Assembly: GCA_003056145.1 (NCBI GenBank)
Contig: LSNL01000003.1
Coordinates: forward strand, 73,993-137,992
Origin: Parcubacteria group bacterium M10-OD1-1
GTDB lineage: Bacteria > Patescibacteriota > Minisyncoccia > Moranbacterales > UBA2206
Direction: 5' to 3'
DNA: 64,000 nucleotides
Shown: positions 43,138-61,529 of the stretch, in pieces
How positions within the stretch are numbered: position 1 is the stretch's first letter
Layout: each line of letters begins with the position of its first letter
Program-made: the position numbers and the translations under genes
The notes under the pieces: generated by a model
Told to the model about the DNA's origin: nothing
The model's input: the letters and a program-made list of their open reading frames with translations, nothing else
Database searches by the model: none

Positions 43138-44034
43138 ATGACTGAAATGAAGAAGGCTGACATTAAAGTAGGATTTTTATGTAATAATAATTGCTTTTTT
43201 TGTGTCCAGGGACATAAAAAAATTTTTGGTAATAAAACAACTAGAGAAATTAAAGCTTCTATAAAGGAAGCTAGAAAAGATTGTGAAATAGTCGTTTTTA
43301 CTGGAGGAGAGCCAACTATTAGAGAGGATATTTTAGAATTGGTGAGTTTTGCTAAAAATTTAAAATTTAAAATTATTCAAATTCAATCAAATGGTAGAAT
43401 GTTTGCTTATAAAGATTTCTGCCAAAAAATAGTTAACGCTGGAGCTAACGAGTTCGCTTTAGCTTTACATGGACATAAAGCTGATTTACATAATTATTTG
43501 ACCCAACAAAATAGTTTCCTTCAAGTGGTTAAAGGAATTAATAATCTTAAAAAAATGAATCAATCAGTGATAATGAATACTGTGATTGTAAAGTCTAATT
43601 ACAGATATCTTCCAGAAATTACAAAACTTCTTATCGGACTTAATGTGGATCAGATTCAATTTGCTTTTGTCCATGCTCTTGGTGCAGCGAAAGATAATTT
43701 TGACAAAGTAATCCCTAGAATTAGCCTGGTTATTCCTTTCCTTGTAAAATCTTTAAAATTAGGTACTCGTTTTAATAAGAAAATAATGGTGGAGGCTATT
43801 CCCCCTTGTTTTTTAAAAGATTTTCAAGAACATATTTCTGAAAATAGTATGCCAGAAATGAAAATTTTTGATTTGGATAATATTGTAGATAATTTTAAAG
43901 AAGCTAGAATAGTAGAAGGAAAAATGAAAAATACAAAATGTAAAAAATGTACTTTATTTTCAGTGTGTGAAGGTCCATGGAAAGAATATCCAGAAAGATT
44001 TGGTTGGGACGAATTTAAGCCAGTAATAAAATAA
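43138..44034 (+). CDS. Radical SAM protein (CNNNCxFC / GGEPT paralog group), C-terminal Cys cluster
   Basis: FLCNNNCFFCVQG (CxxxCxxC), TGGEPT, C-terminal CKKCTLFSVCEG. Confidence 0.8.
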   Translation: MTEMKKADIKVGFLCNNNCFFCVQGHKKIFGNKTTREIKASIKEARKDCEIVVFTGGEPTIREDILELVSFAKNLKFKIIQIQSNGRMFAYKDFCQKIVNAGANEFALALHGHKADLHNYLTQQNSFLQVVKGINNLKKMNQSVIMNTVIVKSNYRYLPEITKLLIGLNVDQIQFAFVHALGAAKDNFDKVIPRISLVIPFLVKSLKLGTRFNKKIMVEAIPPCFLKDFQEHISENSMPEMKIFDLDNIVDNFKEARIVEGKMKNTKCKKCTLFSVCEGPWKEYPERFGWDEFKPVIK

Positions 44035-44036
44035 AA

Positions 44037-45170
44037 ATGAAAAAGGAGAAGTTAAAATTAAAAGACACTATTGCTAAAGAAAAACGTCATTGGGTGAGAA
44101 TTACTAACTCTTGCAATAATAATTGTCTTTTTTGCTTAGACAAGGAAAATCAAGATGGAACTTTTGTTTCTTTTCAAGAAATTGTAAAAGAGTTTAAGAA
44201 AGGACTATCGCTGGGTGCAAAGCGGGTTATTATTTCTGGGGGAGATCCAACGATTCATCCTGATATTTTTAAAATTATCAAAAAAGCTAATTCAATAGGT
44301 TATAGTCATGTACAGATGATAAGTAATGGGAGAATGTTAGCTTATGGTGATTTTGCAAAAAAACTGAAAGAAGCAGGTTTAGATGAAATTACTATATCAA
44401 TGCATAGCCATATTAAAGAAAAGTTAGAGAAAATGACTCAAATAAAAGGGAGTTATGATCAAGCAATGAGGGGGCTTATAAATGCTTTGAAATATAAATT
44501 TATTGTGAGTGTGGATATTGTTATAAATAAAATAAATTATAAAACATTAGGAGACTCATTGAAATTCTTTATAAAATTAGGTGTTTCTGAATTTGATTTA
44601 TTATATGTAATCCCTTTTGGGAGTGCTTGGAAAAATAGAAAAAAACTTTTTTTTTCACCAGAAAAAGCCAAGGACTATCTAGATAAAGCATTTGAGTTAT
44701 CAGATAATCCAGATTTATTTATTTGGACCAATAGATTACCAGCTATTTTTTTAGAGGGCTACGAACATTTAATTCAAAACCCCATTAAGCTTAAAGATGA
44801 AGTTAATGGAACGCAAAAAGAATTTGAAGCATATATATTTAATAATAAAGAAAGGAATTGCAAAGGAGAGAGATGCAAATATTGTTTTATGAAAGATTTC
44901 TGTAGTGATTTGGAAGCTATTAAAAAAGAAGGCAAGTTAACTTCAAAAACTGAACCTATTTGTATATCAAAAAAAAAGGTAAAAAAATATACATTCAAAC
45001 TGGATAAAAAGTTTGATGTATATAATTTTCTAGATTTTTATATTCAGCATCGATATTTTGTAAAAAGTTTAAGATGTACTAATTGTCGTTATAATAATAA
45101 TTGTTCTGGTGCTCACATTGAAAAAATTAGAAAGGAAGGATTTAAAATTTTAAAACCAATTAAAGAATAA
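44037..45170 (+). CDS. Radical SAM protein (same paralog group), extended Cys-rich C-terminus
   Basis: SCNNNCLFCLD, SGGDPT, C-terminal CKGERCKYCFMKDFC...CTNCRYNNNCSGAH. Confidence 0.8.
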   Translation: MKKEKLKLKDTIAKEKRHWVRITNSCNNNCLFCLDKENQDGTFVSFQEIVKEFKKGLSLGAKRVIISGGDPTIHPDIFKIIKKANSIGYSHVQMISNGRMLAYGDFAKKLKEAGLDEITISMHSHIKEKLEKMTQIKGSYDQAMRGLINALKYKFIVSVDIVINKINYKTLGDSLKFFIKLGVSEFDLLYVIPFGSAWKNRKKLFFSPEKAKDYLDKAFELSDNPDLFIWTNRLPAIFLEGYEHLIQNPIKLKDEVNGTQKEFEAYIFNNKERNCKGERCKYCFMKDFCSDLEAIKKEGKLTSKTEPICISKKKVKKYTFKLDKKFDVYNFLDFYIQHRYFVKSLRCTNCRYNNNCSGAHIEKIRKEGFKILKPIKE

Positions 45171-45274
45171 TTGCGGAATAAGAAATCAATACTAAATTCA
45201 GAGTTAGTTAATTATATAAAGTATGCTAAAAAGTTAAAATACAAAAATATTATTAATTTTCTTGATTATTATAT

Positions 45275-47068
45275 ATGAAAATAAAAAATTGTCATAAGGA
45301 TGAGAAAACATTTAAGTGTGAAAATCCTAAGATTACGCTAAGCAAGCTAGAAAAAGCGTTTGATGAATTAGGATTAGATGTTGAATATACAGGGAGAGTT
45401 TTTTGTAAGGACACTTTATATTCCGGGTCTCTTATAATTCCTTCATTAAATTATATTGTTAATGGAAAGGGTATCTCTTATGAACTTGCTAAGGCTAGTG
45501 CCTATTCAGAAATGGCCGAGAGAATTTCTTGTGGATTTTTTAATTTTTTTCCAGTAAAAAATCAGAGTAAAAAAAACTTAATTGATAAGAAAAAACTATT
45601 TGATTTTTACTACTTTTCTTATCAAAAAGGTTATAGACATGGGCGGCAAAGCTTATTTGAGAATTCTCTAAAGATTGAAAATATATTTAAAAAACAAGGG
45701 TTATCCAAAAAAGAAGTAGAAAAAATAAAAAAAAGTGAAGTGGCTCAGCATTGGGTAAATGGATATTCTCTATCTAGACAGAAAAATATAAAGGTCCCGT
45801 TGAGATTGATTCATCGAATTTCTGGGACCAATGGTTTAGCGTCTGGTAACACACTTGAAGAAGCTATTGTTCATGGAGCTAATGAAGTTTTTGAGAGATT
45901 TATTTTATTTAAAGTCGTAAAGGAAAAAAAGATTTTACCTACGATCAGAATTTCTTCAATAAAAGATGGTTTTATTCTGAAAATAATAAAATACTTTAAG
46001 AAAAATAATATTGATATAATAATCAAGGATTGCTCTTCAGATGGACATATTCCGTGTATAGGAATTTTATTTATTAATAATAATATTAGGAATAGCAAAA
46101 ATTCAGTAGAAAAAAAGACAAAGTATTTAAGGTGGTATACGGAGGTATCGTTTAATTATAAAGAAGCAATTATCAGATGCTTCACCTCATATACGCAAGG
46201 AATATCAAAAGTGACTGATTTAAAAAAATCAAAAAGTATGGAAGTTCTTTGGAAAGAATGGTTCAGTGAGTTTCCTTTAAAGTCTAATGACAATAAAAAA
46301 TACAGCTATTTATCTAAAAAAAATTTTTATGAAGGTGATTTAGGATTTCTTAAAAAAGGTGGAAAAGTTAGTATAAAAAATATCCAGGAAGGTAAAGAGA
46401 CTAACGATTGCGTTGAAGAAATTAATAAAATAAAATCAATTTGTAAATTTTTAGGTACGGAATTAATTGTTATTGACCAGACTCATCCAGTTTTGAATTT
46501 TCCTGCAGTTAGAATTATTATTCCAGGGGTATCTGATGAAATGAATGCTGAGTATAAAGATAAATTTGATATTGAGAGAATAACTTTGCCGATAGAAAAA
46601 TATTGGACAAAAGAATTTTATGATTTTATTATAAGTAGTAAATGGACAAAAACAAATCAAGGAATAAAAAGTTTGATTGTAGAGATAGAAAAATATATAG
46701 TCACTTTTCCTTTTAATTTTGTTATACAAACATCAGGAGTAGGTAACAGAACTATTAATTTATTTGAATTACTTTTGTCGCTCTATATTAAAATAGGAGG
46801 AGATATTAAATTGGTAAACTGTTTAAATGTTTTGTCAGGATTATATCCGGACGAAGAAAAATTATATAAAACTTTACGTACTTTGGCTACTTCTAATAAG
46901 ATAAAAGAAATGAAAGAAGTTTTGAAACAAACAAGAGGTTGTTACCGGTTTATGCTTAGCCAAGGAAATAATAATCCTTTTATTAATTGGTGCGATAAAT
47001 CATGTGAAAATAGGTGTGTTAGAAATTTTGAAATTAATCTTAAAAAACTTCTTAAAAGTTTTTATTAA
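45275..47068 (+). CDS. YcaO-domain protein (E. coli YcaO-like, stand-alone type)
   Basis: NGKGISYELAKASAYSEMAERIS and NGLASGNTLEEAIVHGANEVFERF match the two YcaO ATP-binding signature blocks. The N-terminus aligns with E. coli YcaO. 597 aa. Confidence 0.8.
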   Translation: MKIKNCHKDEKTFKCENPKITLSKLEKAFDELGLDVEYTGRVFCKDTLYSGSLIIPSLNYIVNGKGISYELAKASAYSEMAERISCGFFNFFPVKNQSKKNLIDKKKLFDFYYFSYQKGYRHGRQSLFENSLKIENIFKKQGLSKKEVEKIKKSEVAQHWVNGYSLSRQKNIKVPLRLIHRISGTNGLASGNTLEEAIVHGANEVFERFILFKVVKEKKILPTIRISSIKDGFILKIIKYFKKNNIDIIIKDCSSDGHIPCIGILFINNNIRNSKNSVEKKTKYLRWYTEVSFNYKEAIIRCFTSYTQGISKVTDLKKSKSMEVLWKEWFSEFPLKSNDNKKYSYLSKKNFYEGDLGFLKKGGKVSIKNIQEGKETNDCVEEINKIKSICKFLGTELIVIDQTHPVLNFPAVRIIIPGVSDEMNAEYKDKFDIERITLPIEKYWTKEFYDFIISSKWTKTNQGIKSLIVEIEKYIVTFPFNFVIQTSGVGNRTINLFELLLSLYIKIGGDIKLVNCLNVLSGLYPDEEKLYKTLRTLATSNKIKEMKEVLKQTRGCYRFMLSQGNNNPFINWCDKSCENRCVRNFEINLKKLLKSFY

Positions 47069-47082: not shown

Positions 47083-48018
47083 ATGGCAAAAATAGGATAT
47101 ATCCAAGTAACTCGTACTTGTAATCAAAAATGTATAATTTGTTCTAATCCTCCTAATGAAAAAGTGTTAAGTCTACAAACAGCCAAACTGGAAATAGATA
47201 AATTAAAAAATAATGGTTGCACAGGAGTTATTCTTACAGGAGGAGAACCAACTCTTTATGAGAAATTACCAGAGCTAATTAGATATAGCTTTAAGAAAAA
47301 TATTTTTCCTAGAATTATTACTAATGGGCAAAAAATAGCTAAGCTAAGATATTTAAAAACTCTTCAACGAGCTGGATTAAAACATATACATCTTTCTATT
47401 TTTTCTTATCAAAGTAAAATTCAAGCTAAAATTTCTCAGAATAATCATTCACTTTATAATATAAAAAGGGCTTTAGACAACTTAAACAAAGTAGAAGGCA
47501 TAACCGTTGATGTTAATACGGCTATTAGTAAATATAATGCTAATCATTTATCTAAAACGGTTCAATGGATTGTAAAAAATTATCCTTTTATAAATCATTT
47601 TGTATTTAATAATCTAGATCCTTATATGAATAGAGCCATGAAGAATCCTCAGATAATTCCCACTCTTAATGATTTTGAATTAGAGCTACACAGAGCTTTA
47701 AGTTTTTTAGAAAAAAATAAAAAAACTTTTCGAGTTGAGAAAGTCCCGTTGTGTTATTTGACGGACTATGAGCATGTTTCTACAGAAACTCGAAAAATTG
47801 TTAAGAAAGAGAGCAGAACAGTGTATTTTTTAGATGAGAAGAAGAGAGTAACTCAAAAAAGCTGGTTTTCTAGAAAAACAGATGACTGTCAACAATGTTC
47901 TTTGAAAAATATTTGTTCAGGATTGTATGCTATTGGGGGTTTTTATAAAGAGACAGAATTATATGCTGTCTTTGAAGATCCGAAAAAAATAATTAAAAAA
48001 ATTAGACAAAACCAATGA
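47083..48018 (+). CDS. Radical SAM protein (same paralog group)
   Basis: TRTCNQKCIICSN, TGGEPT, C-terminal CQQCSLKNICSG. Confidence 0.8.
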   Translation: MAKIGYIQVTRTCNQKCIICSNPPNEKVLSLQTAKLEIDKLKNNGCTGVILTGGEPTLYEKLPELIRYSFKKNIFPRIITNGQKIAKLRYLKTLQRAGLKHIHLSIFSYQSKIQAKISQNNHSLYNIKRALDNLNKVEGITVDVNTAISKYNANHLSKTVQWIVKNYPFINHFVFNNLDPYMNRAMKNPQIIPTLNDFELELHRALSFLEKNKKTFRVEKVPLCYLTDYEHVSTETRKIVKKESRTVYFLDEKKRVTQKSWFSRKTDDCQQCSLKNICSGLYAIGGFYKETELYAVFEDPKKIIKKIRQNQ

Positions 48019-48965
48019 TTTTTAATTATTTATTTCTGGGAGTAATTTTATTAGTTAGTTTGGTAATTTGTTGGGAAGACATTCAGCATAAAAAAATTAG
48101 AAACAAATTAATTCTAATTGGTTTGCTCTTAGGCGCTATTTTATTCGGAGGCTCATATTTTTTAGGATGGATTAATAATTATTATTTAAAAGTTGTTTTC
48201 TTTAACACTGTAATTGCGATAGTAGTTAGTTTTTTAATTTGGAAAATGGGATTTTGGCCAGCTGGAGATAGCAAATATTTTATATTGATAGCTTTTCTTT
48301 TACCAATACATTATTATAATAAGTCATACTTGGAATATTTTCCTTCTTTTATCTTATTAGTGAATATATTTATTTTATTCGTAGGAATTATTTTAGTTAA
48401 AGTAATATATTTTAACTCAAGAAGTTTTATAATCTTTTCAGCCAAAACAAACAGAGGAGAGCTTAAGCAAAAATTTTTTCAAGTAGTGAATACTCTTATA
48501 GTCAATATGCAAAATGTAAGTAACTGGAAAAAATGGGGGAAGGGGATGCTATTAGGGGGAATGATGTATTTTATTCTAAGTTTTTTTATTTATAAACGGA
48601 GTATTGATTTAGTGCCTTTCTTTATATATTCAACGGCCTTTGGCTTATTTGATGTTATTTTTAATTTTTACAATCAATCATTTGCTAAAAAATCTATAGA
48701 CATTATTAATTTACAGCCAAAAATGAATTTAGCTGATGAGTTTCCAAGCGATTTAAAAAAAGATAAAGAAAGAATAGAGAAAATTGGGAAATTAAGGCCA
48801 GACGGATTAGATAAACAACAGGTAAGAGTTATTAAAGAATACTATATCAGTAAAGACTTGAAGCAGATTTATATTTATAAAACAATTCCTTTTTCAATCT
48901 GGATATTTATTGGTACGGTAATAACAATAATTTTTCAAAGAAATATTATCCAGATTATTTTATAA
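48015..48965 (+). CDS. Polytopic membrane protein with an N-terminal A24-like (prepilin-peptidase/TadV-type) aspartic peptidase signature
   Basis: WEDIQHK... (first Asp) and WPAGDSKYFILIAF (GxGD-type second Asp) about 65 aa apart, then about 190 aa of extra TM region. Confidence 0.4.
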   Translation: MIFNYLFLGVILLVSLVICWEDIQHKKIRNKLILIGLLLGAILFGGSYFLGWINNYYLKVVFFNTVIAIVVSFLIWKMGFWPAGDSKYFILIAFLLPIHYYNKSYLEYFPSFILLVNIFILFVGIILVKVIYFNSRSFIIFSAKTNRGELKQKFFQVVNTLIVNMQNVSNWKKWGKGMLLGGMMYFILSFFIYKRSIDLVPFFIYSTAFGLFDVIFNFYNQSFAKKSIDIINLQPKMNLADEFPSDLKKDKERIEKIGKLRPDGLDKQQVRVIKEYYISKDLKQIYIYKTIPFSIWIFIGTVITIIFQRNIIQIIL

Positions 48966-51358: not shown

Positions 51359-51862
51359 ATGAAAAATCATCAAAGTATCAAAACTAAAAAAAATCTTAAA
51401 AAAAATGAAATTAGCTTTTTATTGAAGACTGATATTTATCCAAAATATATTATCTATAAAGCTTGTTATACTTTTATTGATCGGGTGTATATTTATTTGG
51501 ATAAACATACTAAAGAAGATATAAAAGTTACTTTAAAGGGTAAAAATAAATTAAAAGATAAGGATATAGATTCATTAAAAGGATTATTCCTTAACGAATT
51601 ATTAAATGTAATTTTAAGAGAAAATATTACCAAAAGGAATAAAAAGATATTAGAGTATATTGTTGGTGGAGCTATTAATGCTTCTTTGGAAAATAATAAA
51701 TTAGTAGAGTTGGAGAATAAAAGTAAAGACCAGCTAGATAAGAAAGAATCAGAAGAAGATATTAATGTTGAAAAAGAGATAGCAATTTTAAAAAAAGAAT
51801 TGGAGAAAATGGAAGAAGAAGATTTTGAAAATGATTCTCTTGGAATTAAAGAAGTCTGTTAG
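51359..51862 (+). CDS. Hypothetical Lys-rich protein with a coiled-coil C-terminus
   Basis: ORF only. Confidence 0.35.
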   Translation: MKNHQSIKTKKNLKKNEISFLLKTDIYPKYIIYKACYTFIDRVYIYLDKHTKEDIKVTLKGKNKLKDKDIDSLKGLFLNELLNVILRENITKRNKKILEYIVGGAINASLENNKLVELENKSKDQLDKKESEEDINVEKEIAILKKELEKMEEEDFENDSLGIKEVC

Positions 51863-54799: not shown

Positions 54800-55090
54800 T
54801 TGTTATATAATCCTATGAAAAGAATAAATAATAAGTTTCCAAAAATAAAAAAAGAATTAAAGACTTTTTTATTAAGCGAAGAGGGAAAAATTGTTGAGAA
54901 AGATGCTATTAAATTAGGAATCGCATTAATTGCAGTCGCTGGAATTTTAAGCGGAGTAATGAAAATTAAGGATGTTCACGCAGGAACTTGTGCTCACGTA
55001 TCTCATGGTTCTCATGGTTCTCATGGTTCTCATGGCTCTCATGGCTCTCATGGCTCTCATGGTTCTCATTCTCAAGGTGGTTGGTGTTAA
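54800..55090 (+). CDS. His-Xaa-Ser repeat peptide, a candidate RiPP precursor: leader with a hydrophobic helix plus CAHV-(SHG)7-SHSQGGWC
   Basis: Seven perfect SHG triplets flanked by Cys at the extreme C-terminus. Located between two rSAM/SPASM pairs. Confidence 0.7.
   Translation: MLYNPMKRINNKFPKIKKELKTFLLSEEGKIVEKDAIKLGIALIAVAGILSGVMKIKDVHAGTCAHVSHGSHGSHGSHGSHGSHGSHGSHSQGGWC
55001..55069. repeat. 9-bp tandem repeat (tctcatggy x7) encoding (SHG)7
   Basis: Read from the sequence. The third position of Gly alternates t/c. Confidence 0.85.
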
Positions 55091-55120: not shown

Positions 55121-56026
55121 ATGAAAAGAAAAATAATTATTGGAGCAATTGTCATTTTATTGCTAGTGATTTTAAGTGCATTGGGACTATTTTTTCTTCG
55201 AGACAATAATCAGACAAGTAATTCTATAAATAATCCTAAAGAACAAACAAGCAATAATATTAAAGCAGGTAACCAAATAAATAATAGTATTAATTTTAAT
55301 AACCAAAAAAACAATAATATCAAAACAGGAAAAATTTTTAAAAGGAGTAACTTACAAGATTGTCAACAAAATTTATTAAAGGATAATTATACTCAGAATG
55401 ATTTTAGTTTAGAATATTATTATGTAGTCAAATCATTTTTAAACAAGAATCAAAAATTTTGTAAATTACTCAGAAATAAAGATTCGGTAGATAATTGTAA
55501 TAATATATATAGTTTGTATGTATCCTTAGCTAATAATAACTGCCAAAGCATTAAAAATAATAAAACTGCTTATTCGTTTTGTTTAGCAAATTCAAAGCAC
55601 AATATTAATCTCTGTCCAACAGAAAATAAAGATTCTCAGCAGATTTGTCAAGCAATTACGAAAGGAGATGAAACAATGTGTCAAGGGCTAAAAGATACAA
55701 AGACTGATCACACTTTAAATCGATGTCGGAATGAAGTTTATTTAGCTAAGGCAGTTGAAAATAAAAATGTTTCTTTATGTCAAAAAATTAAAGCAATCAA
55801 TCCACAGGGATCTGCCGAAAAGTTTATTTGCGATGTTTTCACTGGAGATAGTCAATCTAGTTTAACGAAGGCGCTCAATTCTTTTAAAGAAAATATTTGT
55901 TACGAGCGATACGGAAATGTTACTGCTAAAGAAAAAAATAATAAATCTATTTGTGAAAAAATTCCTTGGAAAAGTGACTTTAGTAAGATAGGATATCAAG
56001 AATGTATTAATCAGTTTAATCAGTAA
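55121..56026 (+). CDS. Membrane-anchored Asn-rich protein with 14 periodically spaced Cys
   Basis: N-terminal TM, then repeated x(10-20)-C-(Q/x) units. Confidence 0.5.
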   Translation: MKRKIIIGAIVILLLVILSALGLFFLRDNNQTSNSINNPKEQTSNNIKAGNQINNSINFNNQKNNNIKTGKIFKRSNLQDCQQNLLKDNYTQNDFSLEYYYVVKSFLNKNQKFCKLLRNKDSVDNCNNIYSLYVSLANNNCQSIKNNKTAYSFCLANSKHNINLCPTENKDSQQICQAITKGDETMCQGLKDTKTDHTLNRCRNEVYLAKAVENKNVSLCQKIKAINPQGSAEKFICDVFTGDSQSSLTKALNSFKENICYERYGNVTAKEKNNKSICEKIPWKSDFSKIGYQECINQFNQ

Positions 56027-56036
56027 TTATAATTTT

Positions 56037-56954
56037 TTGAGAAATAAATATTTAGCTGAAAATGTTTTAAACCTAGCTGATAATTTAGAAGTCTCTCCCT
56101 TAACAATAAAAAAAACCACTTCTTTCTTAAACAAATTAATCAAATTAGATTCTAAAAAGATAACTCAATTTGAGTTATCTTTTAAGGCTAAGAGGCAGCT
56201 TAAAGAAAAAAGAAAAATTCGGATTTTAAATATTGATTCTAAAGCGTATTCTTATTTTAGCCAAAAATTATACACGAAGAGAATAAATGATTATTATTCA
56301 TTAATTCAAGATAATAATAATCCGTGGTTAGCAAGGTTATTCCGTAGTTTATTATCTATTGCAGATAATCCGTTGGATGTTTATATGGGGGCTGATGTAG
56401 AGAACAATTATTGTCTTTATGCATTCTGGCTAATATTTGGAGGTGCTCAAAAAGACGGAAAAATAAGCTTTGTTAAAAACAGCAATGAGCTAATTAACAA
56501 AATATTTAAAACTCTAAAAATAAAACCAGAATTTCCAGTCAGCAAGGACATACTTAATTTAGGATTTGATATTGATAATAGCTCTTTTTTTTATAAAATT
56601 TATTATTTTTTAAATAAAAATAATTATAATACAATTAGTCAAGAAAGCAGGTCGGTAGTACATACTATTATTAAATTTTTGAAAAATAACCATAAGTATT
56701 GGTTTTTTGTCAGCGAAAGATTTGAAGTAGGGAAAAAAAATATCAATAGAAAAAAAATATACCTAGAGTTCTTAGATGATTTAAAAATAAATCAAGAAGA
56801 AACCTATAAATTACTTGACCATCTATTAAAAATAATTGGATGTGATTATAAAATTAAAAAAATAAAATCCCTGCTGAAAAACATCAAAGGAAAAATTGTT
56901 ATTTTGGCGTTTGAGGATGATGGGACAACAACATTTTATATAAGGCTAGATTGA
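56037..56954 (+). CDS. Hypothetical protein (305 aa, TTG start) inside the rSAM cluster
   Basis: ORF only. Its stop (TGA at 56952-56954) abuts the ATG of the next rSAM gene at 56955. Confidence 0.4.
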   Translation: MRNKYLAENVLNLADNLEVSPLTIKKTTSFLNKLIKLDSKKITQFELSFKAKRQLKEKRKIRILNIDSKAYSYFSQKLYTKRINDYYSLIQDNNNPWLARLFRSLLSIADNPLDVYMGADVENNYCLYAFWLIFGGAQKDGKISFVKNSNELINKIFKTLKIKPEFPVSKDILNLGFDIDNSSFFYKIYYFLNKNNYNTISQESRSVVHTIIKFLKNNHKYWFFVSERFEVGKKNINRKKIYLEFLDDLKINQEETYKLLDHLLKIIGCDYKIKKIKSLLKNIKGKIVILAFEDDGTTTFYIRLD

Positions 56955-58046
56955 ATGATGAAGATTAATAAAAAAATTAGTAAAATTAAGTTAACATTAA
57001 CTACTAATTGCAATTTGGCTTGCAATTATTGTTTTGTTAAAAAAACTAACGAAAGGACGTCTTTTGATGTGGCTAAAAAAAGTATTGATTTGCTTTTAAA
57101 CTCTCCTGGCAATGAGAAACTACTTTCTTTATACGGAGGAGAACCTCTTCTAATGTTTAGTTTGATTAAACAAATTGTTGCTTATTCTCAGAAGCTAGCT
57201 AGCAAGAACAAAAAAAAACTCACTATTTCCATTTGCACTAATTTAACTTTTATTAATGAAGAAATTAAAAAGTTTATCAAAGAAAATAGCTTAAAGATTA
57301 CAATTAGTGTCGTCGGTATAGCAAAAGATCATAATAAATTCAGAAGCTTTATTAATGGAGTTGGGTCACATCAGAAAGTTATTGAAAATATTAAAGAAAT
57401 TTTCAAAATTTTACCAGCAGAAAATATCGGCATTTCTTTTGTTGTCCTTCCGGAATTAAGTTCACGGTTATTAGATAATATTCAATATATTAATAATCTA
57501 GAGATAAGTAATAAAAATATTAATTTTGAAATAATTCAAGACTATAAGGAATGGGATAAAAATAGCATAGAGAATTTTAAAAATAGTTATAAAAAAATTA
57601 GTCAAAAACTTTTAAGAAGTATTTCACAAAAGAAAAAAACAACATATTTTAATATAATCAATTGGGAATTAGAGAAAAAGGCAATTAGCCAAAAATTAGG
57701 AAATAGTTGTCCGTTTGAGTATTTATTAGAAATCTATCCTTCTGGAGATATTGCGTTCTCTCCATTTTTGTTAAATAAAAAAAATAAAAAGGATTTTATC
57801 ATTGGCAATGTTAAAGAATTAAAATTAAAAAGATATAATAACTGTCAATATATTAAAAATGATAAAAAATGCCAAAAATGTCAACAAATTTATTTTCAAA
57901 AAAATAAAAGTTTTGATAATGCTAATAAAGTAAAAATGTATTATGATATAATAAGTTTAGCCACTGCTAGAATAATTCAAGAAAAAGGAAAATCAGAGAA
58001 ATCATTTAAAAACTATATTACTGAAGCTAAAAAGCGATGTTTTTAA
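56955..58046 (+). CDS. Radical SAM/SPASM peptide-modifying enzyme
   Basis: TTNCNLACNYCF, YGGEPLL, C-terminal CQKCQQ. Confidence 0.85.
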   Translation: MMKINKKISKIKLTLTTNCNLACNYCFVKKTNERTSFDVAKKSIDLLLNSPGNEKLLSLYGGEPLLMFSLIKQIVAYSQKLASKNKKKLTISICTNLTFINEEIKKFIKENSLKITISVVGIAKDHNKFRSFINGVGSHQKVIENIKEIFKILPAENIGISFVVLPELSSRLLDNIQYINNLEISNKNINFEIIQDYKEWDKNSIENFKNSYKKISQKLLRSISQKKKTTYFNIINWELEKKAISQKLGNSCPFEYLLEIYPSGDIAFSPFLLNKKNKKDFIIGNVKELKLKRYNNCQYIKNDKKCQKCQQIYFQKNKSFDNANKVKMYYDIISLATARIIQEKGKSEKSFKNYITEAKKRCF

Positions 58047-58127
58047 ATTTAATTAGTTAAAAATTTGAAGTGAAATAAATTTTGTAATCGGTGTCTCTAC
58101 AGAGTGGGTTTAAATTAATTTAATAGA

Positions 58128-59237
58128 ATGAATAAATCAATTAATAGTAAAGGAGTTTCTTTTTACCCAAGGCAAATAGATATTTGTTTTAGTGAAAAAT
58201 GCAATTTAGATTGTGATTATTGTTTTGTTAATAAGACAAGCGATAAGGTTTTAGATATTAAAAAAATCAAATCAGCTATAGATATTTTTCTGGATTTTCC
58301 AGGAAAAAATAAAACAATTACTTTCACTACCAGCGAACCATTTATTAATCCGAGGCTTTTTAGAGATTCAATAAAATATATTTTTCAAGAGGTTAAGAAA
58401 AAAAATATCAATATTTTGGTTATTGCAACTACCAATGGAATTCTTTTTAATAGAGAAATGCAGGAGTTTATTAAACGGTTAGATGATAGATTTATACTTA
58501 ATTTTAGTCTAGACGGGAAAGAAGATAGTCATAATGCACACAGAAAAATTAAAAATTCCCAAAGCAATTATTTTGAATTAGCAATTAAAAATTTTAGCAA
58601 TTTTTCTAGAAAAAATGGATATGTTAGAATTATTTCTACTATTGCTTCAGACCAAGTAAATTTTTTGCTGACTAATACTGAATTTATTATTAAACAAGGG
58701 TTCTCATATATTGATTTATTTCCTCAACTGTTTAAAATATGGAGTAAAAAAGAAAGAGATGTTTTAGAGAGCAGTTTAAATTCTATAGTTGATAAAATTA
58801 ATAAAAAAGAGGTAAAATTAGATTTAAGGATTCTAAATAGATTATGGGTAAGCACAGATTATGCAAAAATTATGTTGGGAGCAGATGGAAAATTTTATTT
58901 ATTTGAATGGGTGTTACCATTAAAAGAAAAGCATAGAAAGTTATTCCAAATAGGGGATTATCGGCATATTAATTTAGCCAAAAGAAAAAAATTGTTCGAG
59001 CTATTATTTAATCAGATATCAAAAGTAAATAAATCAAAATGTAGTACTTGTGAATATAATGCTTTTTGTTCAGATCCATTACCACTATATTTGTGGAGTC
59101 TATATAATAAATATGATTTTTTAACCTATTTTAAAAACTTTTGTCAAATTTCTAAAATCATGATCAGGATAAGCAATAGAATTAAAATTAAAAATAGAAC
59201 CGATAAAAGTAAATGGGAAGAAGTTATTAAAAAATAA
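58128..59237 (+). CDS. Radical SAM protein with a degenerate SAM-binding (GGE) motif
   Basis: SEKCNLDCDYCF is present, but the GGEP position reads TTSEPFI. C-terminal CSTCEYNAFC. Confidence 0.7.
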   Translation: MNKSINSKGVSFYPRQIDICFSEKCNLDCDYCFVNKTSDKVLDIKKIKSAIDIFLDFPGKNKTITFTTSEPFINPRLFRDSIKYIFQEVKKKNINILVIATTNGILFNREMQEFIKRLDDRFILNFSLDGKEDSHNAHRKIKNSQSNYFELAIKNFSNFSRKNGYVRIISTIASDQVNFLLTNTEFIIKQGFSYIDLFPQLFKIWSKKERDVLESSLNSIVDKINKKEVKLDLRILNRLWVSTDYAKIMLGADGKFYLFEWVLPLKEKHRKLFQIGDYRHINLAKRKKLFELLFNQISKVNKSKCSTCEYNAFCSDPLPLYLWSLYNKYDFLTYFKNFCQISKIMIRISNRIKIKNRTDKSKWEEVIKK

Positions 59238-59239
59238 AT

Positions 59240-59941
59240 ATGAAAAAAATTAAAGTAGCTTGCGTAATTAGTGGAGGGAAGGATGGAATTTTTGGATATT
59301 ATCAATCTGTTAAAAAATATAATGTTGCAGTTTTACTGAATTTAAATGACAACAATAAAGATGTGAGTTTTCATCATTATCAAAAAGAATTAGTCGCATT
59401 GCAAGCCAAAGCGATTGGATTGCCATTAATACAAAAGACAGTAGTTGCTCAATATAGAAATCAAAATCTTTTTGAAGAGCAAATTTTTGATATTTTCTCT
59501 AAACTTAAAAAAGATGGGATTAGAGGTGTAATTCTTGGCTATGTTTTAACAGGTGATTATCAGCATGATTTATTAAAAAGAATTTGTAGTGAATTAGAGA
59601 TAAAACTTATTTTACCAAACTATAAAAGAAATTCGAAAATTGTCTTAACGGAAATCATTGAATCAAATATTGTAGCTATTATTACTTCTGTTATGAAAGG
59701 TAAGATTGCTAGGGAGTGGTTAGGGAAGCCAATTGATAAAAAATTCTTAAAGTATTTAATGAATAAAAAAAATATAGATTTTTGTGGTGACAAAGGAGAA
59801 TTTCACACTTTTGTTGTAGACGCCCCATTTTTTAAAAAGAAAATTTATTTTAATGAAATAGAAAAAAATAAAATACCTCTCAAAGATGATTTTTATGAAT
59901 ATTGTTTGAAAATTAAAAAATATTCTTTTCAGGATAGATAA
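59240..59941 (+). CDS. PP-loop ATP pyrophosphatase of the DUF71/MJ0570 (Dph6-related) family
   Basis: VACVISGGKDG (SGGxD PP-loop) at the N-terminus, about 230 aa. Confidence 0.55.
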   Translation: MKKIKVACVISGGKDGIFGYYQSVKKYNVAVLLNLNDNNKDVSFHHYQKELVALQAKAIGLPLIQKTVVAQYRNQNLFEEQIFDIFSKLKKDGIRGVILGYVLTGDYQHDLLKRICSELEIKLILPNYKRNSKIVLTEIIESNIVAIITSVMKGKIAREWLGKPIDKKFLKYLMNKKNIDFCGDKGEFHTFVVDAPFFKKKIYFNEIEKNKIPLKDDFYEYCLKIKKYSFQDR

Positions 59942-59952
59942 TTTTTAAAAAT

Positions 59953-60675
59953 ATGGAGAATAATAATATTTATATTTTAAATTTAGACTCTTGCAATCAA
60001 AGATGTTTATTCTGTATGAAAGTAGATGATTTGAATAATAATAACCATATTAAAGAATTAGCTGATGTAAAAAAAGAAATATTTAAGGCCAAAGAAAATG
60101 GCTATCAACTAATTGATTTTTTTGGAGGAGAGCCAACTGTTTTTTCTTTTCTTTCTAAATCCATTTCTTTAGCACAGAAGAATGGAATGTTAGTGATGTT
60201 AGCCACTAATGGGGTAAAATTTTCTTCGAAAGAATATGCAACCAATTTTTTTAAAGAAATAGATTCACAAAAGATAACTTTTAGAGTATCAATGCATAGT
60301 CAAAATCACGGAGTACATGATTACATAACTCAATTAAAGGGAAGTCACAAAAGAACAGAAACTGGAATCTTAAACATATTAAATTATGTTGAGAAATTAA
60401 CAGCTAATATTGTGATAACATCTTTAAATTTTAAAGAGTTGAGTAAAATAGTTCAATATTTACATGGTTTAGGAGTGAAAGGTGTAAAGTTCTCTGCTTT
60501 GCAATTGCAAGGGGAGATTCTAAAGAATAAACGATTAATTGTTGATTATAAAGAATTTAGGAAATACCTTTTAGAGGCGGTACTATTGTCAAAAAAATTA
60601 AAATTTAAAAGCATTGAAATTGAGAAAATTAATAAAAGTGAATTGAATAAATTAAATTTTGTAAAGTTTCTATAA
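59953..60675 (+). CDS. Small radical SAM protein (CNNNC-type paralog group, 240 aa, no SPASM)
   Basis: DSCNQRCLFCM, FGGEPT. Confidence 0.8.
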   Translation: MENNNIYILNLDSCNQRCLFCMKVDDLNNNNHIKELADVKKEIFKAKENGYQLIDFFGGEPTVFSFLSKSISLAQKNGMLVMLATNGVKFSSKEYATNFFKEIDSQKITFRVSMHSQNHGVHDYITQLKGSHKRTETGILNILNYVEKLTANIVITSLNFKELSKIVQYLHGLGVKGVKFSALQLQGEILKNKRLIVDYKEFRKYLLEAVLLSKKLKFKSIEIEKINKSELNKLNFVKFL

Positions 60676-60698
60676 CTATTTAAGTCTATAATGAGATT

Positions 60699-61529
60699 AT
60701 GCGACAATACGGATATTTTAACGGTAAAATTATTACTAATGATAAAATTAAAATTAGCCCTTACGATATAGGTTTACTACGTGGTTACGGGGTTTTTGAT
60801 GTAATGCGAACACGGAATGGAAAACCATTTCTTCTGGCTAAACACTGGGAAAGATTACAAAATTCTGCTCAAGAATTAAACTTAAAAATTCCAATTTTAG
60901 AAAAAGAATTTGCTAAAATTATTAGAAAATTATTAGAAAAAAATAAATTTCAGGAGTCAACTATTAGAACGGTTCTAACGGGAGGAGAAAGTTCTAATGG
61001 ATTTTCTTTAGAAGGAAAATTTACCTTTTTTATTTTAATTGAACAGTTTAATTCTCTGCCAAAAAAATATTTAAGAGAGGGTGTAAAAGTGATAACTACT
61101 AATTTTCATCGAAATTTTCCTCAAGCTAAAATAACCAATCATTTATTGGCAATTAAAATGCAAAAAGAAAGAATTAGAAAGAAAGCCTATGAAATTATCT
61201 ATACTTATAAAAACTTGGCTTTGGAAGCGACTACAAGTAATTTATTCATTGTAAGAAATGATAAAATTATTACTGCTAAAGAAGGAATTTTACCTGGAAT
61301 TACTAGGGGGCTCGTGTTAGATTTGGCTAAGAGAGAAGGATTATTAGTAATTGAAAAAAATATTTCAGTCAGAAATTTGTTTTCTGCTCAAGAAGTATTT
61401 TTAACAGCCTCTAGTAAGGATATTCTTCCTGTAAGAGAGATAGATGGTAAAAAGGTGGGCGATGGTCAACCTGGAGAAAAAACCAAAATATTGATAGAAA
61501 CTTTTCAAAAGTTTGTCAAAAATTATTGA
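60699..61529 (+). CDS. Class IV aminotransferase (D-amino-acid / branched-chain / ADC-lyase fold)
   Basis: YGYFNGK...SPYD.GLLRGYGVFD.MR N-terminus typical of fold-type IV PLP enzymes. Confidence 0.7.
   Translation: MRQYGYFNGKIITNDKIKISPYDIGLLRGYGVFDVMRTRNGKPFLLAKHWERLQNSAQELNLKIPILEKEFAKIIRKLLEKNKFQESTIRTVLTGGESSNGFSLEGKFTFFILIEQFNSLPKKYLREGVKVITTNFHRNFPQAKITNHLLAIKMQKERIRKKAYEIIYTYKNLALEATTSNLFIVRNDKIITAKEGILPGITRGLVLDLAKREGLLVIEKNISVRNLFSAQEVFLTASSKDILPVREIDGKKVGDGQPGEKTKILIETFQKFVKNY

What the first reader, a model, noticed from the sequence alone, without database searches (positions are those of the whole stretch)
43138..61529. 18-kb co-directional block with eight radical-SAM enzymes, a YcaO, a PP-loop ATPase and Cys/His-repeat peptides: a candidate novel RiPP-like maturation system
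Between recG and tRNA-Arg every gene runs on the plus strand, with near-zero or overlapping spacers. The block contains:
- Eight proteins with CxxxCxxC radical-SAM cores. Four are of a CNNNCxFC/GGEPT type; four are SPASM-type in two adjacent pairs.
- An E. coli-type YcaO.
- An A24-like aspartic-peptidase membrane protein and an Lnt-like CN-hydrolase.
- A DUF71/Dph6-like PP-loop ATPase and a fold-type-IV aminotransferase.
- Two Cys-rich exported proteins.
- A (SHG)7 repeat peptide.

This density of post-translational-modification chemistry around small or repeat-rich substrates is characteristic of RiPP clusters. The exact combination (Hxs-like peptide + multiple SPASM rSAMs + YcaO + Dph6-like ATPase + CN-hydrolase) is not one I recognise as described.
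Basis: partly seen in the sequence, partly recalled or inferred. Interest (0 to 1): 0.9.

Follow-up and report, generated by a model that had tools for sequence, protein, structure and literature searches.

The report
Expanded His-Xaa-Ser peptide maturation locus
This 18-kb block in a tiny-genome (Patescibacteria/CPR) bacterium is an enlarged version of the His-Xaa-Ser (Hxs) system, which uses radical-SAM enzymes to modify a small exported histidine-repeat peptide and was shown in 2026 to block phage DNA entry in E. coli; the extra enzymes found here have not been described in any paper I could search.

Summary
Nineteen co-directional genes lie between recG and tRNA-Arg, with spacers of 104 nt or less. 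They include eight radical-SAM (rSAM) enzymes, a YcaO, an A24 peptidase, Lnt, a Dph6-like ligase, a class-IV aminotransferase, two Cys-rich exported proteins and an (SHG)7 peptide.

It is not an unclassifiable RiPP cluster. Its core is a His-Xaa-Ser system: HxsD and HxsB pass NCBIfam cut-offs, the peptide is HxsA3-like, and four rSAMs are HxsC-like paralogues.

Comparative genomics shows that 17 of the 19 genes recur together in other Parcubacteria, in permuted module order. Lnt and the aminotransferase do not recur.

New findings:
- A FlaK-like A24 peptidase accompanies HxsB in 13 of 26 long CPR, DPANN and unassigned metagenomic loci.
- A specific Dph6-like clade was found only inside Hxs loci, in every case examined.
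- The Cys-rich proteins encoded after the peptidase share a C-terminal W[RK]EV motif.

Most likely the block is a multi-step maturation and export pathway for a modified surface peptide. Its function is inferred only by analogy to E. coli HXS. I rate it a new variant of a known kind, of moderately high interest.

The parts
43138..44034 (+). rSAM1, an HxsC-like radical-SAM enzyme (closest NCBIfam model is HxsC4)
   Evidence: Pfam Radical_SAM 75 bits. NF038332 HxsC4 scores 162.7 bits (cut-off 500) and TIGR03977 HxsC scores 104 bits (cut-off 268). Motifs CNNNCFFC, GGEPT and a C-terminal CxxCx5C. Orthologues of 50-67% identity lie in Hxs loci L002, L005, L007, L021, L081, L083 and L085-L087.
44037..45170 (+). 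rSAM2, an HxsC-like radical-SAM enzyme with two C-terminal CxxCx5C motifs
   Evidence: Orthologues of 54-65% identity always sit next to rSAM1.
45275..47068 (+). Stand-alone YcaO (597 aa), a sporadic accessory enzyme
   Evidence: Pfam YcaO 150 bits. It is below every NCBIfam equivalog cut-off. Its closest homologues (54% and 49% identity) lie in Hxs loci L075/L086 and L076. The 40% homologue from Omnitrophica does not.
47083..48018 (+). rSAM3, an HxsC-like radical-SAM enzyme
   Evidence: TIGR03977 is the top hit at 93.8 bits. The order rSAM1-rSAM2-rSAM3-A24 is conserved in L007, L021, L081, L083, L086 and L087.
48015..48965 (+). FlaK-like A24 (GxGD-type aspartic) membrane peptidase, the candidate leader peptidase for HxsA3
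   Evidence: PF01478 scores 33.4 bits against a cut-off of 26.5. In a 14-sequence alignment of Hxs-linked homologues, D22, N30 and G84-D85-x-K87 are invariant. The only PDB hit is FlaK 3S0X, E=2.5e-5. 12 of 14 hit PF01478 and 4 of 14 hit Arc_PepC. Present in 13 of 26 long Hxs loci.
48981..50576 (+). Lnt-type apolipoprotein N-acyltransferase. Its membership of the system is doubtful.
   Evidence: TIGR00546 scores 216.5 bits against a cut-off of 132.9. Found in 0 of 26 related loci.
50599..51279 (+). Exported Cys-rich protein (13 Cys, poly-Pro linker) ending in ...CGWREVNPSF
   Evidence: No Pfam or NCBIfam hit. A shared C-terminal W[RK]EV motif occurs in Cys-rich exported proteins that follow the A24 gene in L081, L083 (two copies) and L086, and precede an HxsA copy in L012. 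Only 6 of about 4800 ORFs carry it.
51359..51862 (+). HxsD
   Evidence: TIGR03976 scores 58.7 bits against a cut-off of 50. Logan annotation gives PF27806 HxsD. It sits upstream of HxsB in 22 of 26 loci.
51889..52119 (+). HxsD-related small protein (76 aa)
   Evidence: NF038315 HxsD_rel scores 34.4 bits against a cut-off of 41. An ORF of 66-101 aa occupies the same position between HxsD and HxsB in most loci.
52122..53600 (+). HxsB, the rSAM/SPASM maturase
   Evidence: TIGR03978 scores 479.1 bits against a cut-off of 370. It was the anchor for all comparative loci.
53604..54764 (+). SPASM1, a CteB/PapB-like thioether-type rSAM/SPASM enzyme sitting where canonical HxsC would be
   Evidence: NF047865 PapB scores 181.8 bits against a cut-off of 340. 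The closest solved structure is CteB 5WGG, E=8e-24 over the full length. It co-occurs with HxsA peptides that end in GGWC.
54815..55090 (+). HxsA3-type precursor: K-rich leader with FLxSEEGKI, a hydrophobic segment, then C-(SHG)7-SHSQGGWC
   Evidence: NF038309 HxsA3 scores 61.0 bits (cut-off 65) and HxsA4 scores 49 bits (cut-off 55). In a 22-sequence leader alignment E22 and G24 are invariant, and P9, K13, F18, L19 and E23 are at least 90% conserved. The family is listed.
55001..55069 (+). 9-bp tandem repeat (TCTCATGGT, 7.7 copies) encoding (SHG)n
   Evidence: TRF score 117, 96% matches.
55121..56026 (+). Membrane-anchored Cys-rich protein (14 Cys)
   Evidence: N-terminal hydrophobic segment. 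Weak homologues of 24-28% identity sit directly after HxsA3 (after a second HxsD in L081 and L087) in L002, L005, L075, L081 and L085-L087.
56037..56954 (+). p305, a protein with an ABBA (PT-barrel) prenyltransferase fold from a small unannotated family; every homologue that carries a source name is from Parcubacteria
56955..58046 (+). SPASM2, a PapB-like rSAM
   Evidence: NF047865 scores 150.6 bits against a cut-off of 340. Orthologues of 37-52% identity occur in 10 of 26 loci.
58128..59237 (+). SPASM3, a PapB/HxsB-like rSAM
   Evidence: Orthologues of 46-56% identity occur in L075, L081, L083 and L085-L087, always beside SPASM2.
59240..59941 (+). Dph6-like PP-loop ATP pyrophosphatase, predicted to be an amidating or adenylating ligase
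   Evidence: PF01902 scores 142.6 bits. TIGR03679 Dph6 scores 125.7 bits against a cut-off of 197. A tight clade of 52-59% identity is followed by a drop to 42% or less. Every clade member examined lies inside an Hxs locus.
59953..60675 (+). rSAM4, a short HxsC-like rSAM lacking the C-terminal Cys motif
   Evidence: TIGR03977 is the top hit at 89.8 bits. A 44%-identical orthologue follows the Dph6-like gene in L086.
60699..61529 (+). Class-IV (BCAT/DAAT-like) aminotransferase. Its membership of the system is doubtful.
   Evidence: PF01063 scores 169.8 bits, but it is below all NCBIfam cut-offs. Found in 0 of 26 related loci. In L005 an HxsC-like rSAM is fused to a class I/II aminotransferase domain.

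Best explanation
The block is a chromosomal, Parcubacteria-type, greatly expanded His-Xaa-Ser (Hxs) system. It is a multi-enzyme pathway that matures and exports one small precursor, HxsA3.

Proposed steps (all inferred unless marked otherwise):
1. HxsA3 (91 aa) is made with three parts: a Lys-rich cytoplasmic leader carrying the conserved FLxSEEGKI motif, one hydrophobic segment, and a core of sequence C-(SHG)7-SHSQGGWC.
2. In the cytoplasm, HxsB, HxsD, the small HxsD-related protein and the HxsC-like rSAM paralogues (rSAM1-4) modify the His-Xaa-Ser repeats. This is by analogy with E. coli, where HxsB, HxsC and HxsD are all required for HxsA cleavage and a +8 Da change is found on an HxS repeat.
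3. Tailoring follows:
   - CteB/PapB-like SPASM enzymes cross-link the flanking Cys residues as thioethers.
   - The YcaO activates backbone amides, for example at Gly-Ser.
   - The ABBA-fold protein p305 prenylates the C-terminal GGWC region or a His.
   - The Dph6-like ligase adenylates or amidates a carboxylate.
4. The FlaK-like A24 peptidase removes the leader at the membrane. The modified His-rich tail is left outside the cell, together with the co-encoded Cys-rich exported proteins.
5. Function: an envelope-level effector. The most likely role is a barrier to phage genome entry, as shown for E. coli HXS.

Shown by the tools: the family assignments, the p305 fold, and the conserved co-location of the genes. 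Not shown: every chemical step, the cleavage and the biological role.
For: - Core identity. HxsB scores 479 bits (cut-off 370) and HxsD 58.7 (cut-off 50). HxsA3 scores 61.0, just under its cut-off of 65. Four rSAMs have HxsC or HxsC4 as top or joint-top hit.
- Gene order. D-D'-B-x-A mirrors the canonical D-B-C-A order (PMC13128918).
- Conservation as a unit. L086 (Ca. Parcubacteria) carries YcaO, HxsD, a 70-aa ORF, HxsB, SPASM1, HxsA3, CysRich2, p305, SPASM2, SPASM3, Dph6-like, rSAM4, rSAM1-3 and A24 in one co-directional run. L075, L081, L083, L085 and L087 carry the same modules in permuted order.
- Matrix of 26 loci of at least 9 kb: HxsD 22, any HxsC-like 22, A24 13, SPASM1 15.
- A24 peptidase. 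Both catalytic Asp motifs are invariant, and FlaK is the only PDB hit.
- Leader. The motif is conserved across 22 precursors from CPR, DPANN and unassigned loci. Gly precedes the hydrophobic stretch in at least 70% of them.
- p305. It has an ABBA prenyltransferase fold. Other isoprenoid genes occur in sister loci: UbiA in L075 and L086, and a polyprenyl synthase in L021.
- SPASM1. It is closest to the thioether-forming CteB and co-occurs with GGWC termini.
- Experimental precedent. rSAM-dependent maturation, non-canonical N-terminal cleavage, export and antiphage function are described in PMC13128918.
Against: - No HxsC-like paralogue reaches the HxsC equivalog cut-off (at most 104 bits against 268).
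- HxsA3 has no peptidoglycan-binding domain, and its repeats contain no Lys or Arg. The electrostatic DNA-binding model proposed for E. coli HxsA therefore does not transfer directly.
- A Cys-flanked poly-His tail also looks like a metal ligand.
- The locus sits among housekeeping genes (aaRS, ATP synthase, recG), not in an obvious defence island. PADLOC gives only generic viperin cross-hits.
- No Pfam pilin or Flp model matches the leader. An AxA-Cys site after the hydrophobic segment could instead be cut by ordinary signal peptidase.
- The A24 gene is missing from about half of the long loci. Several of those are truncated.
- Fold does not prove activity: PatF, one of the best structural matches to p305, is catalytically inactive (my own knowledge).
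- YcaO is present in only 4 of 26 loci.
Confidence: 0.6

Rival explanations
1. Same enzymology, different purpose. The locus makes a secreted or surface RiPP natural product, such as a His/Cys-rich metallophore, a signal or an antimicrobial. The episymbiotic CPR cell would use it on its host or its competitors, rather than as an antiphage barrier.
For: - The core peptide has 10 His and 2 Cys and no basic residues.
- The tailoring set (thioether rSAMs, YcaO, prenyltransferase fold, amidating ligase) is typical of RiPP natural products.
- The genomic context is core chromosomal.
- The system is widespread and elaborated in Parcubacteria.
Against: - The only experimentally studied Hxs system is an antiphage effector (PMC13128918).
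- No exporter or ABC/C39 transporter gene lies in the block.
- The precursor keeps a hydrophobic segment, and a membrane peptidase is co-encoded. This suggests retention at the envelope rather than release.
Confidence: 0.3
2. The block is a chance juxtaposition of several unrelated operons: an Hxs core, a separate YcaO/rSAM cluster, a separate SPASM/Dph6 cluster, and housekeeping Lnt and aminotransferase genes. The strongly strand-biased small genome would make them look like one unit.
For: - Most genes of the window are on the + strand anyway.
- Lnt and the aminotransferase have no counterpart in related loci.
- Promoter and terminator scans cannot define transcription units.
Against: - The modules are found together in at least six other Parcubacteria contigs, with different flanking genes and permuted order.
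- The p305 family (27 clusters) and the Dph6-like clade were found only inside Hxs loci in every case examined.
- The closest YcaO homologues are also in Hxs loci.
Confidence: 0.04
3. The rSAM enzymes are housekeeping cofactor-biosynthesis enzymes (MoaA, heme or NirJ-type, PqqE-like) and the small ORFs are not real genes.
For: MoaA, AhbD and NirJ models appear among the hits for rSAM1-3.
Against: - Those scores are 40-105 bits against cut-offs of 231-650, and HxsC/HxsC4 models score as high or higher.
- The small ORFs (HxsA3, HxsD-rel) are conserved in sequence and position across dozens of loci.
Confidence: 0.02

Closest known systems
HXS antiphage system of E. coli and Klebsiella (HxsD-HxsB-HxsC-HxsA; Li et al. 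2026, PMC13128918; first defined in silico by Haft and Basu 2011)
   Same: - HxsB and HxsD orthologues pass the curated cut-offs.
- The precursor carries tandem His-Xaa-Ser repeats and an N-terminal export-type hydrophobic segment.
- The precursor gene lies downstream of the rSAM pair.
- HxsC-family rSAMs are present.
   Different: - No single HxsC orthologue. There are four diverged paralogues encoded elsewhere in the block, and a CteB/PapB-like SPASM enzyme sits in the 'C' position.
- The precursor is 91 aa with no peptidoglycan-binding domain. Its repeats are SHG with no basic residues and are flanked by Cys.
- About ten extra conserved genes are present: A24 peptidase, three SPASM rSAMs, an ABBA prenyltransferase-fold protein, a Dph6-like ligase, YcaO and Cys-rich exported proteins.
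- The host is a CPR bacterium. The paper places 99.7% of HXS systems in Pseudomonadota.
NCBIfam variant families HxsA3 (NF038309), HxsA4 (NF038313), HxsC4 (NF038332) and HxsD_rel (NF038315)
   Same: These are the best-scoring models for the peptide, rSAM1 and the 76-aa ORF. Curators have therefore already catalogued this branch of the Hxs family.
   Different: All four scores fall below the curated cut-offs: 61 against 65, 49 against 55, 163 against 500, and 34 against 41. I found no published description of the accessory genes.
SCIFF and ranthipeptide thioether maturases (CteB, PDB 5WGG; PapB, NF047865)
   Same: SPASM1-3 are closest to these. SPASM1 aligns to CteB over its full length (E=8e-24). 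The precursor has Cys residues flanking the repeat.
   Different: Scores are 100-182 bits against a cut-off of 340. The substrate is neither a SCIFF peptide nor a CxxxD-type peptide.
ABBA (PT-barrel) prenyltransferases, including RiPP enzymes PagF, PatF, KgpF, LimF and DciF, and indole prenyltransferases CymD and MpnD
   Different: Sequence identity is 8-13%, and there is no Pfam or NCBIfam hit. Only 27 clusters are known, and those with a source name are from Parcubacteria. The context is rSAM/Hxs, not cyanobactin. Activity and donor are unknown.
Archaeal preflagellin and class-III signal peptidases (FlaK, PDB 3S0X; A24B)
   Same: Both catalytic Asp motifs (DxxxxxI/xN and GDxK) are present. 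FlaK is the only PDB hit. Some members carry the Arc_PepC domain.
   Different: These proteins are 300-390 aa with a different inserted region. They are encoded in Hxs loci, not next to pilin or archaellin genes. The proposed substrate has a 24-35-residue leader and matches no pilin model.
Diphthine-ammonia ligase Dph6 (DUF71; PH1257, PDB 2D13 and 3RJZ)
   Same: PP-loop ATP pyrophosphatase fold. Pfam PF01902 scores 143 bits.
   Different: It scores 125.7 bits against the Dph6 cut-off of 197. It is bacterial, where there is no diphthamide pathway. It belongs to a separate clade found only in Hxs loci.

Membership tests
His-Xaa-Ser (Hxs/HXS) system | HxsB rSAM/SPASM maturase (TIGR03978, cut-off 370 bits) | tested here: met
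   479.1 bits, aligned over 15-488 of 492 aa.
His-Xaa-Ser (Hxs/HXS) system | HxsD small protein (TIGR03976, cut-off 50 bits; LLNDYxLRE-type motif) | tested here: met
   58.7 bits. The sequence contains FLNELLNVILRE.
His-Xaa-Ser (Hxs/HXS) system | HxsC rSAM (TIGR03977, cut-off 267.9 bits) adjacent to HxsB | tested here: not met
   The four paralogues score 89.8-104.1 bits. None is adjacent to HxsB. The adjacent gene is PapB/CteB-like.
His-Xaa-Ser (Hxs/HXS) system | Precursor with tandem His-Xaa-Ser repeats | tested here: met
   H-G-S repeated seven times. HxsA3 and HxsA4 are the best models, but the scores are just below their cut-offs (61.0 against 65; 49 against 55). The canonical HxsA model gave no hit.
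His-Xaa-Ser (Hxs/HXS) system | Peptidoglycan-binding domain in HxsA (E. coli type) | tested here: not met
   The protein is 91 aa, and no domain was found even at E=10.
His-Xaa-Ser (Hxs/HXS) system | rSAM-dependent cleavage and +8 Da modification of HxsA; antiphage activity | not testable with these tools
   Needs expression, mass spectrometry and phage assays.
Ranthipeptide / SCIFF maturases (PapB NF047865, ScfB TIGR03974) | Score above the equivalog cut-off (340 and 425 bits) | tested here: not met
   181.8, 150.6 and 100.3 bits for PapB; at most 109 bits for SCIFF.
Azoline-forming (TOMM) YcaO | SagD-type cyclodehydratase (TIGR03604, cut-off 219 bits) with an E1-like/Ocin-ThiF partner and a dehydrogenase | tested here: not met
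   59.2 bits. No partner or FMN dehydrogenase is present among the block's Pfam hits.
Thioamide-forming YcaO | McrA-type YcaO (TIGR03266, cut-off 365 bits), usually with TfuA | tested here: not met
   85.1 bits. No TfuA is present in the block.
E. coli-type YcaO (RimO accessory factor, NF040716) | Cut-off 700 bits | tested here: not met
   83.4 bits. The E. coli YcaO structure 4Q84 matches only at E=2.4e-9 over about 100 residues.
Peptidase family A24 (prepilin/preflagellin peptidases) | Pfam PF01478 above its gathering score and two catalytic Asp motifs | tested here: met
   33.4 bits against 26.5. D22 and G84-D85-x-K87 are invariant in 14 homologues. FlaK 3S0X is hit at E=2.5e-5.
ABBA aromatic/peptide prenyltransferases | PT-barrel fold of five alpha-alpha-beta-beta repeats | tested here: met
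ABBA aromatic/peptide prenyltransferases | Prenyl-diphosphate binding and transfer activity | not testable with these tools
   Only conserved K/R/Y residues on the strands were seen.
Diphthine-ammonia ligase Dph6 (TIGR03679) | Cut-off 197.3 bits; diphthamide pathway context | tested here: not met
   125.7 bits. The context is an Hxs locus in a bacterium.
Apolipoprotein N-acyltransferase Lnt (TIGR00546) | Cut-off 132.9 bits | tested here: met
   216.5 bits. It is a true Lnt-family protein, but it does not recur with Hxs genes.

The most novel reading that the evidence does not exclude
In CPR bacteria and DPANN archaea the Hxs precursor is handled like a class-III (prepilin or archaellin-type) signal-peptide substrate.

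1. A dedicated FlaK-like peptidase cuts it at the conserved Gly. This would supply the 'missing' protease step that is unexplained in E. coli HXS.
2. The rSAM-modified His-rich tail is additionally prenylated by a new ABBA prenyltransferase family.
3. The tail is also C-terminally amidated by a Dph6-like ligase.

The product would be a lipidated, cross-linked, pilin-like surface peptide. That would be a previously unseen class of RiPP-derived envelope component, possibly a broad antiviral barrier in ultra-small symbionts.
Probability: 0.2. Interest if true: 0.85.

Novelty: new variant of a known kind. Interest (0 to 1): 0.65.

Why it matters
- The Hxs system acquired a function only in 2026. 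Its chemistry (a +8 Da change) and its non-canonical cleavage are unsolved, and it was reported as almost exclusive to Pseudomonadota.
- This locus shows a deep, elaborated branch in Patescibacteria. Relatives occur in a DPANN (Woesearchaeota) archaeon and in metagenomic contigs of unassigned taxonomy.
- That branch brings a co-encoded candidate processing peptidase.
- It also brings a defined set of tailoring enzymes, including a new prenyltransferase-fold family and a dedicated Dph6-like clade.
- Together these give comparative handles on which steps are core (HxsB, HxsD, an HxsC-like enzyme and the repeat peptide) and which are add-ons.
- CPR organisms were until recently thought to lack RiPP pathways (PMC8939145). 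This locus points to post-translationally modified surface peptides in them.

Tried and rejected
- Flp or type IV pilin identity of the HxsA3 leader. The resemblance I recalled was not backed by any Pfam hit, even at E=10. It is kept only as a layout analogy.
- PADLOC defence models. Only weak generic rSAM-to-viperin cross-hits. The library predates HXS.
- Promoter and terminator scans. Counts were no higher than in shuffled sequence, so no operon boundaries can be drawn.
- Rfam. Only the three tRNAs.
- p305 against DUF5838 (L021, L085) and the 262-aa ORF of L002. No BLAST or profile similarity. These may be non-homologous analogues or unrelated.
- Organism name. Exact-sequence look-ups gave assembly GCA_003056095.1 and Logan run SRR32234002, but no taxon name. 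Taxonomy is inferred from relatives: Moraniibacteriota, Parcubacteria, Berkelbacteria and 'Patescibacteria group'.
- BLAST for CysRich1 homologues. None at 1e-5. A C-terminal motif search then recovered positional analogues.
- Housekeeping readings of the rSAMs (MoaA, NirJ, AhbD, PqqE). Rejected on score.
- Haft and Basu 2011 (PMC3133131). Not held. It is cited through the reference lists of PMC9062424 and PMC8939145.

Full report
**1. Observation**

The region 43138-61529 holds 19 long ORFs, all on the + strand. Spacers run from a 4-nt overlap to 104 nt. The block is bounded by recG (40962-43043, minus strand) and tRNA-Arg (61577-61650). GC content is 25-30%, like the rest of the window.

- eight Radical_SAM proteins, each with one CxxxCxxC motif;
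- a YcaO;
- a Peptidase_A24 membrane protein;
- an Lnt that passes its equivalog cut-off;
- a Diphthami_syn_2 PP-loop protein;
- a class-IV aminotransferase;
- two Cys-rich proteins with N-terminal hydrophobic segments;
- a peptide with (SHG)7, encoded by a 9-bp, 7.7-copy tandem repeat at 55001-55069.

The rSAM density is not a background property. Eight of the nine CxxxCxxC-bearing ORFs of at least 150 aa in the 64-kb window are in the block, and the ninth is an antisense ORF at 6373-6837. The rest of the window is housekeeping: aminoacyl-tRNA synthetases, ATP synthase and TsaD.

**2. What the core is**

NCBIfam gives these assignments:

| Coordinates | Best model | Bits | Cut-off |
|---|---|---|---|
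| 52122-53600 | HxsB (TIGR03978) | 479 | 370 |
| 51359-51862 | HxsD (TIGR03976) | 58.7 | 50 |
| 51889-52119 | HxsD_rel | 34 | 41 |
| repeat peptide | HxsA3 | 61.0 | 65 |

The four CNNNC-type rSAMs have HxsC or HxsC4 as top or joint-top hit. They score 90-163 bits, far below the cut-offs of 268 and 500. Housekeeping models (MoaA, NirJ, AhbD, PqqE) score no better and are also far below their cut-offs.

The centre of the block is therefore a His-Xaa-Ser system. That system was defined in silico by Haft and Basu in 2011 (cited in PMC9062424). It was characterised in 2026 as the HXS antiphage system of E. coli (PMC13128918). In E. coli:
- HxsB, HxsC and HxsD are all needed for a non-canonical N-terminal cleavage of HxsA;
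- a +8 Da modification is found on an HxS repeat;
- the matured protein acts in the periplasm against phage DNA entry.

That paper reports 99.7% of systems in Pseudomonadota, with the gene order D-B-C-A.

**3. Is the 18-kb block one unit?**

I anchored searches on HxsB.
- The genome collection gave a Ca. Moraniibacteriota contig (L002, 65% identity) and a Ca. Woesearchaeota contig (L003, 40% identity).
- The metagenome scan gave 71 loci.
- Further loci came from the neighbourhoods of the closest YcaO, Dph6-like and p305 homologues.

BLAST of the 19 window proteins against all ORFs of these loci gives 26 loci of at least 9 kb whose HxsB is at least 34% identical. Counts among those 26 are:

| Gene | Loci |
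|---|---|
| HxsD | 22 |
| any HxsC-like rSAM | 22 |
| SPASM1 | 15 |
| A24-like peptidase | 13 |
| SPASM2 | 10 |
| CysRich2 | 7 |
| p305 | 6 |
| SPASM3 | 6 |
| Dph6-like | 6 |
| YcaO | 4 |
| rSAM4 | 1 |
| Lnt | 0 |
| aminotransferase | 0 |

Six of these loci were fetched through YcaO, Dph6-like or p305. For them the independent observation is that an Hxs core is present.

The most complete relative is L086 (Ca. Parcubacteria, GCA_018902835.1). In one co-directional run it has YcaO, UbiA, HxsD, a 70-aa ORF, HxsB, SPASM1, HxsA3, CysRich2, p305, SPASM2, SPASM3, Dph6-like, rSAM4, rSAM1, rSAM2, rSAM3 and A24. L081/L087, L083 and L085 carry the same three modules in other orders and with different flanking genes.

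The modules are:
- rSAM1-2-3 plus A24;
- HxsD-D'-B-SPASM1-A3;
- CysRich2-p305-SPASM2-SPASM3-Dph6-like.

Permuted but persistent co-location is strong evidence of functional linkage.

BLAST found no CysRich1 homologue. However, the ORF after the A24 gene in L081, L083 (two copies) and L086, and an ORF just upstream of an HxsA copy in L012, is also an exported Cys-rich protein. All of them end in the same W[RK]EV motif. Only these 6 of about 4800 ORFs have it.

So 17 of the 19 genes recur. Lnt and the aminotransferase do not, and I treat them as probable neighbours or lineage-specific additions.

**4. New annotations**

*(a) The A24 protein.* A 14-sequence alignment of Hxs-linked homologues keeps both catalytic Asp motifs invariant (D22; G84-D85-x-K87). 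Its profile hits only FlaK (3S0X) in the PDB. 12 of the 14 match PF01478 and 4 of the 14 match Arc_PepC. The gene occurs next to Hxs genes in Parcubacteria, in the Woesearchaeota contig, and in loci whose HxsA repeats resemble the E. coli type (HRSHSS). In that last group the order is D-D'-A24-C-B-A.

*(c) The Dph6-like protein.* It belongs to a tight clade of 52-59% identity, after which identity drops to 42% or less. Every member examined lies inside an Hxs locus.

*(d) SPASM1.* It aligns over its full length to the thioether-forming CteB (E=8e-24). It is present wherever the precursor ends in GGWC, and absent where the precursor ends in S-Y or S-W. This is a small sample.

**5. The precursor family**

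More than 20 HxsA-type peptides were collected. They share the following layout:
- a Lys-rich leader with P-x-h-K-K-x-h-K-x-F-L-x-x-E-E-G-K-I, where E22 and G24 are invariant and five further positions are at least 90% conserved;
- a hydrophobic stretch of about 17 residues, preceded by Gly in at least 70% of sequences;
- a short polar segment that often ends A-x-A;
- a Cys;
- the (SH[GAS])n repeats;
- an aromatic C-terminus (GGWC, S-W or S-Y).

A charged N-region, a Gly and a hydrophobic helix, together with a co-encoded FlaK-like peptidase, are what a class-III signal would look like. However, no pilin or Flp profile matches, and an ordinary signal peptidase I cut after A-x-A is equally possible. 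This step is inference only.

**6. Mechanism and function**

The proposed order of events is:
1. cytoplasmic modification of the repeats by HxsB, HxsD, HxsD-rel and the HxsC-like paralogues;
2. thioether formation by the CteB/PapB-like enzymes;
3. optional YcaO chemistry;
4. prenylation by p305 and carboxylate activation or amidation by the Dph6-like ligase;
5. leader removal by the A24 peptidase;
6. display at the cell surface alongside the Cys-rich exported proteins.

Only the family and fold assignments and the synteny are shown. The chemistry and the cleavage are inferred.

The function is taken from the single experimental precedent, antiphage action. There are real reservations:
- HxsA3 lacks a peptidoglycan-binding domain and has no basic residues;
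- a Cys-flanked poly-His tail could bind metals;
- the locus sits in core chromosomal context.

I therefore put about 0.6 on the overall statement. Identity as an expanded Hxs system deserves about 0.9, and the antiphage role much less. I put about 0.3 on a secreted or surface natural-product role.

**7. Novelty and score**

The kind is known: the Hxs system, with NCBIfam already holding HxsA3, HxsC4 and HxsD_rel models. The architecture here differs substantially:
- no orthologous HxsC, but four paralogues;
- a short Cys-flanked precursor;
- about ten conserved accessory genes.

Full-text searches found no description of Hxs loci in CPR or DPANN, nor of these accessory genes. [quoted passage not shown]

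Verdict: a new variant of a known kind, interest 0.65. It remains well above ordinary because of the peptidase lead, the new prenyltransferase-fold family and the breadth across CPR and DPANN.

Noticed in passing
window 26338-29259 (+): The leucyl-tRNA synthetase (973 aa) carries a NUDIX domain hit (E=4e-10) at residues 422-518, just after the editing domain. This is an unusual insertion for LeuRS.
   Followed up: no
window 48981-50576 (+): A bona fide Lnt-family N-acyltransferase (216 bits against a cut-off of 133) in a CPR bacterium, wedged between the A24 peptidase and a Cys-rich exported protein. It is absent from all related Hxs loci. In L075 and L086 a UbiA membrane prenyltransferase lies within the same co-directional run, between YcaO and HxsD. 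Whether either enzyme lipidates the Hxs product is unknown.
   Followed up: partly
window 50599-51279; L081 18863-19408; L083 15942-16895 and 16916-17845; L086 18565-19875; L012 3235-4407: Exported Cys-rich proteins (12-45 Cys; 10 in the L012 copy) in Hxs loci share a C-terminal W[RK]EV(x)P-type ending with no transmembrane segment after it. The meaning of the motif is unknown. Only 6 of about 4800 ORFs carry it.
   Followed up: partly
L003 12355-14673 (-) and 16416-18638 (-); L012 8143-9981; L018 6349-8271 (-); L005 14615-16450: In DPANN and other loci the HxsC-like rSAMs occur as double-rSAM fusions of 612-772 aa. In L005 one is fused to a class I/II aminotransferase domain.
   Followed up: partly
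P0057: A 690-aa protein fuses a YcaO domain to a Radical_SAM/Fer4_12 domain. This hints at a direct functional link between these YcaOs and rSAM enzymes.
   Followed up: no
L076 1431-1706, 9959-10312 and 10367-10765; L012 4435-4713 and 7846-8121: Some loci encode two or three different HxS-repeat precursors. In L076 the one ending in GGWC sits beside a SPASM1-like enzyme and the YcaO, while those ending in S-Y sit beside HxsB.
   Followed up: partly
L001 (Logan SRR32234002 contig) end at 12906, equivalent to window ~55025: An independent assembly of the same organism breaks inside the 9-bp SHG repeat. This suggests repeat-number heterogeneity or an assembly difficulty there.
   Followed up: no
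L021 9992-10792 and 10857-11450: HxsB is split into two ORFs in this metagenomic locus. This is either a frameshift or pseudogene, or a sequencing error.
   Followed up: no
L085 10364-11281 and 11283-12701; L021 13614-14456; L002 5503-8009: Other Hxs loci carry further accessory genes that are absent from the window: DUF5838, a B12-binding rSAM, a HemN-like rSAM and a MiaB-like (UPF0004 plus rSAM) enzyme.
   Followed up: partly
window 54800 versus 54815: The mechanical ORF for the precursor starts at a TTG (96 aa). The identical NCBI contig calls a 91-aa product starting at the ATG at 54815.
   Followed up: yes
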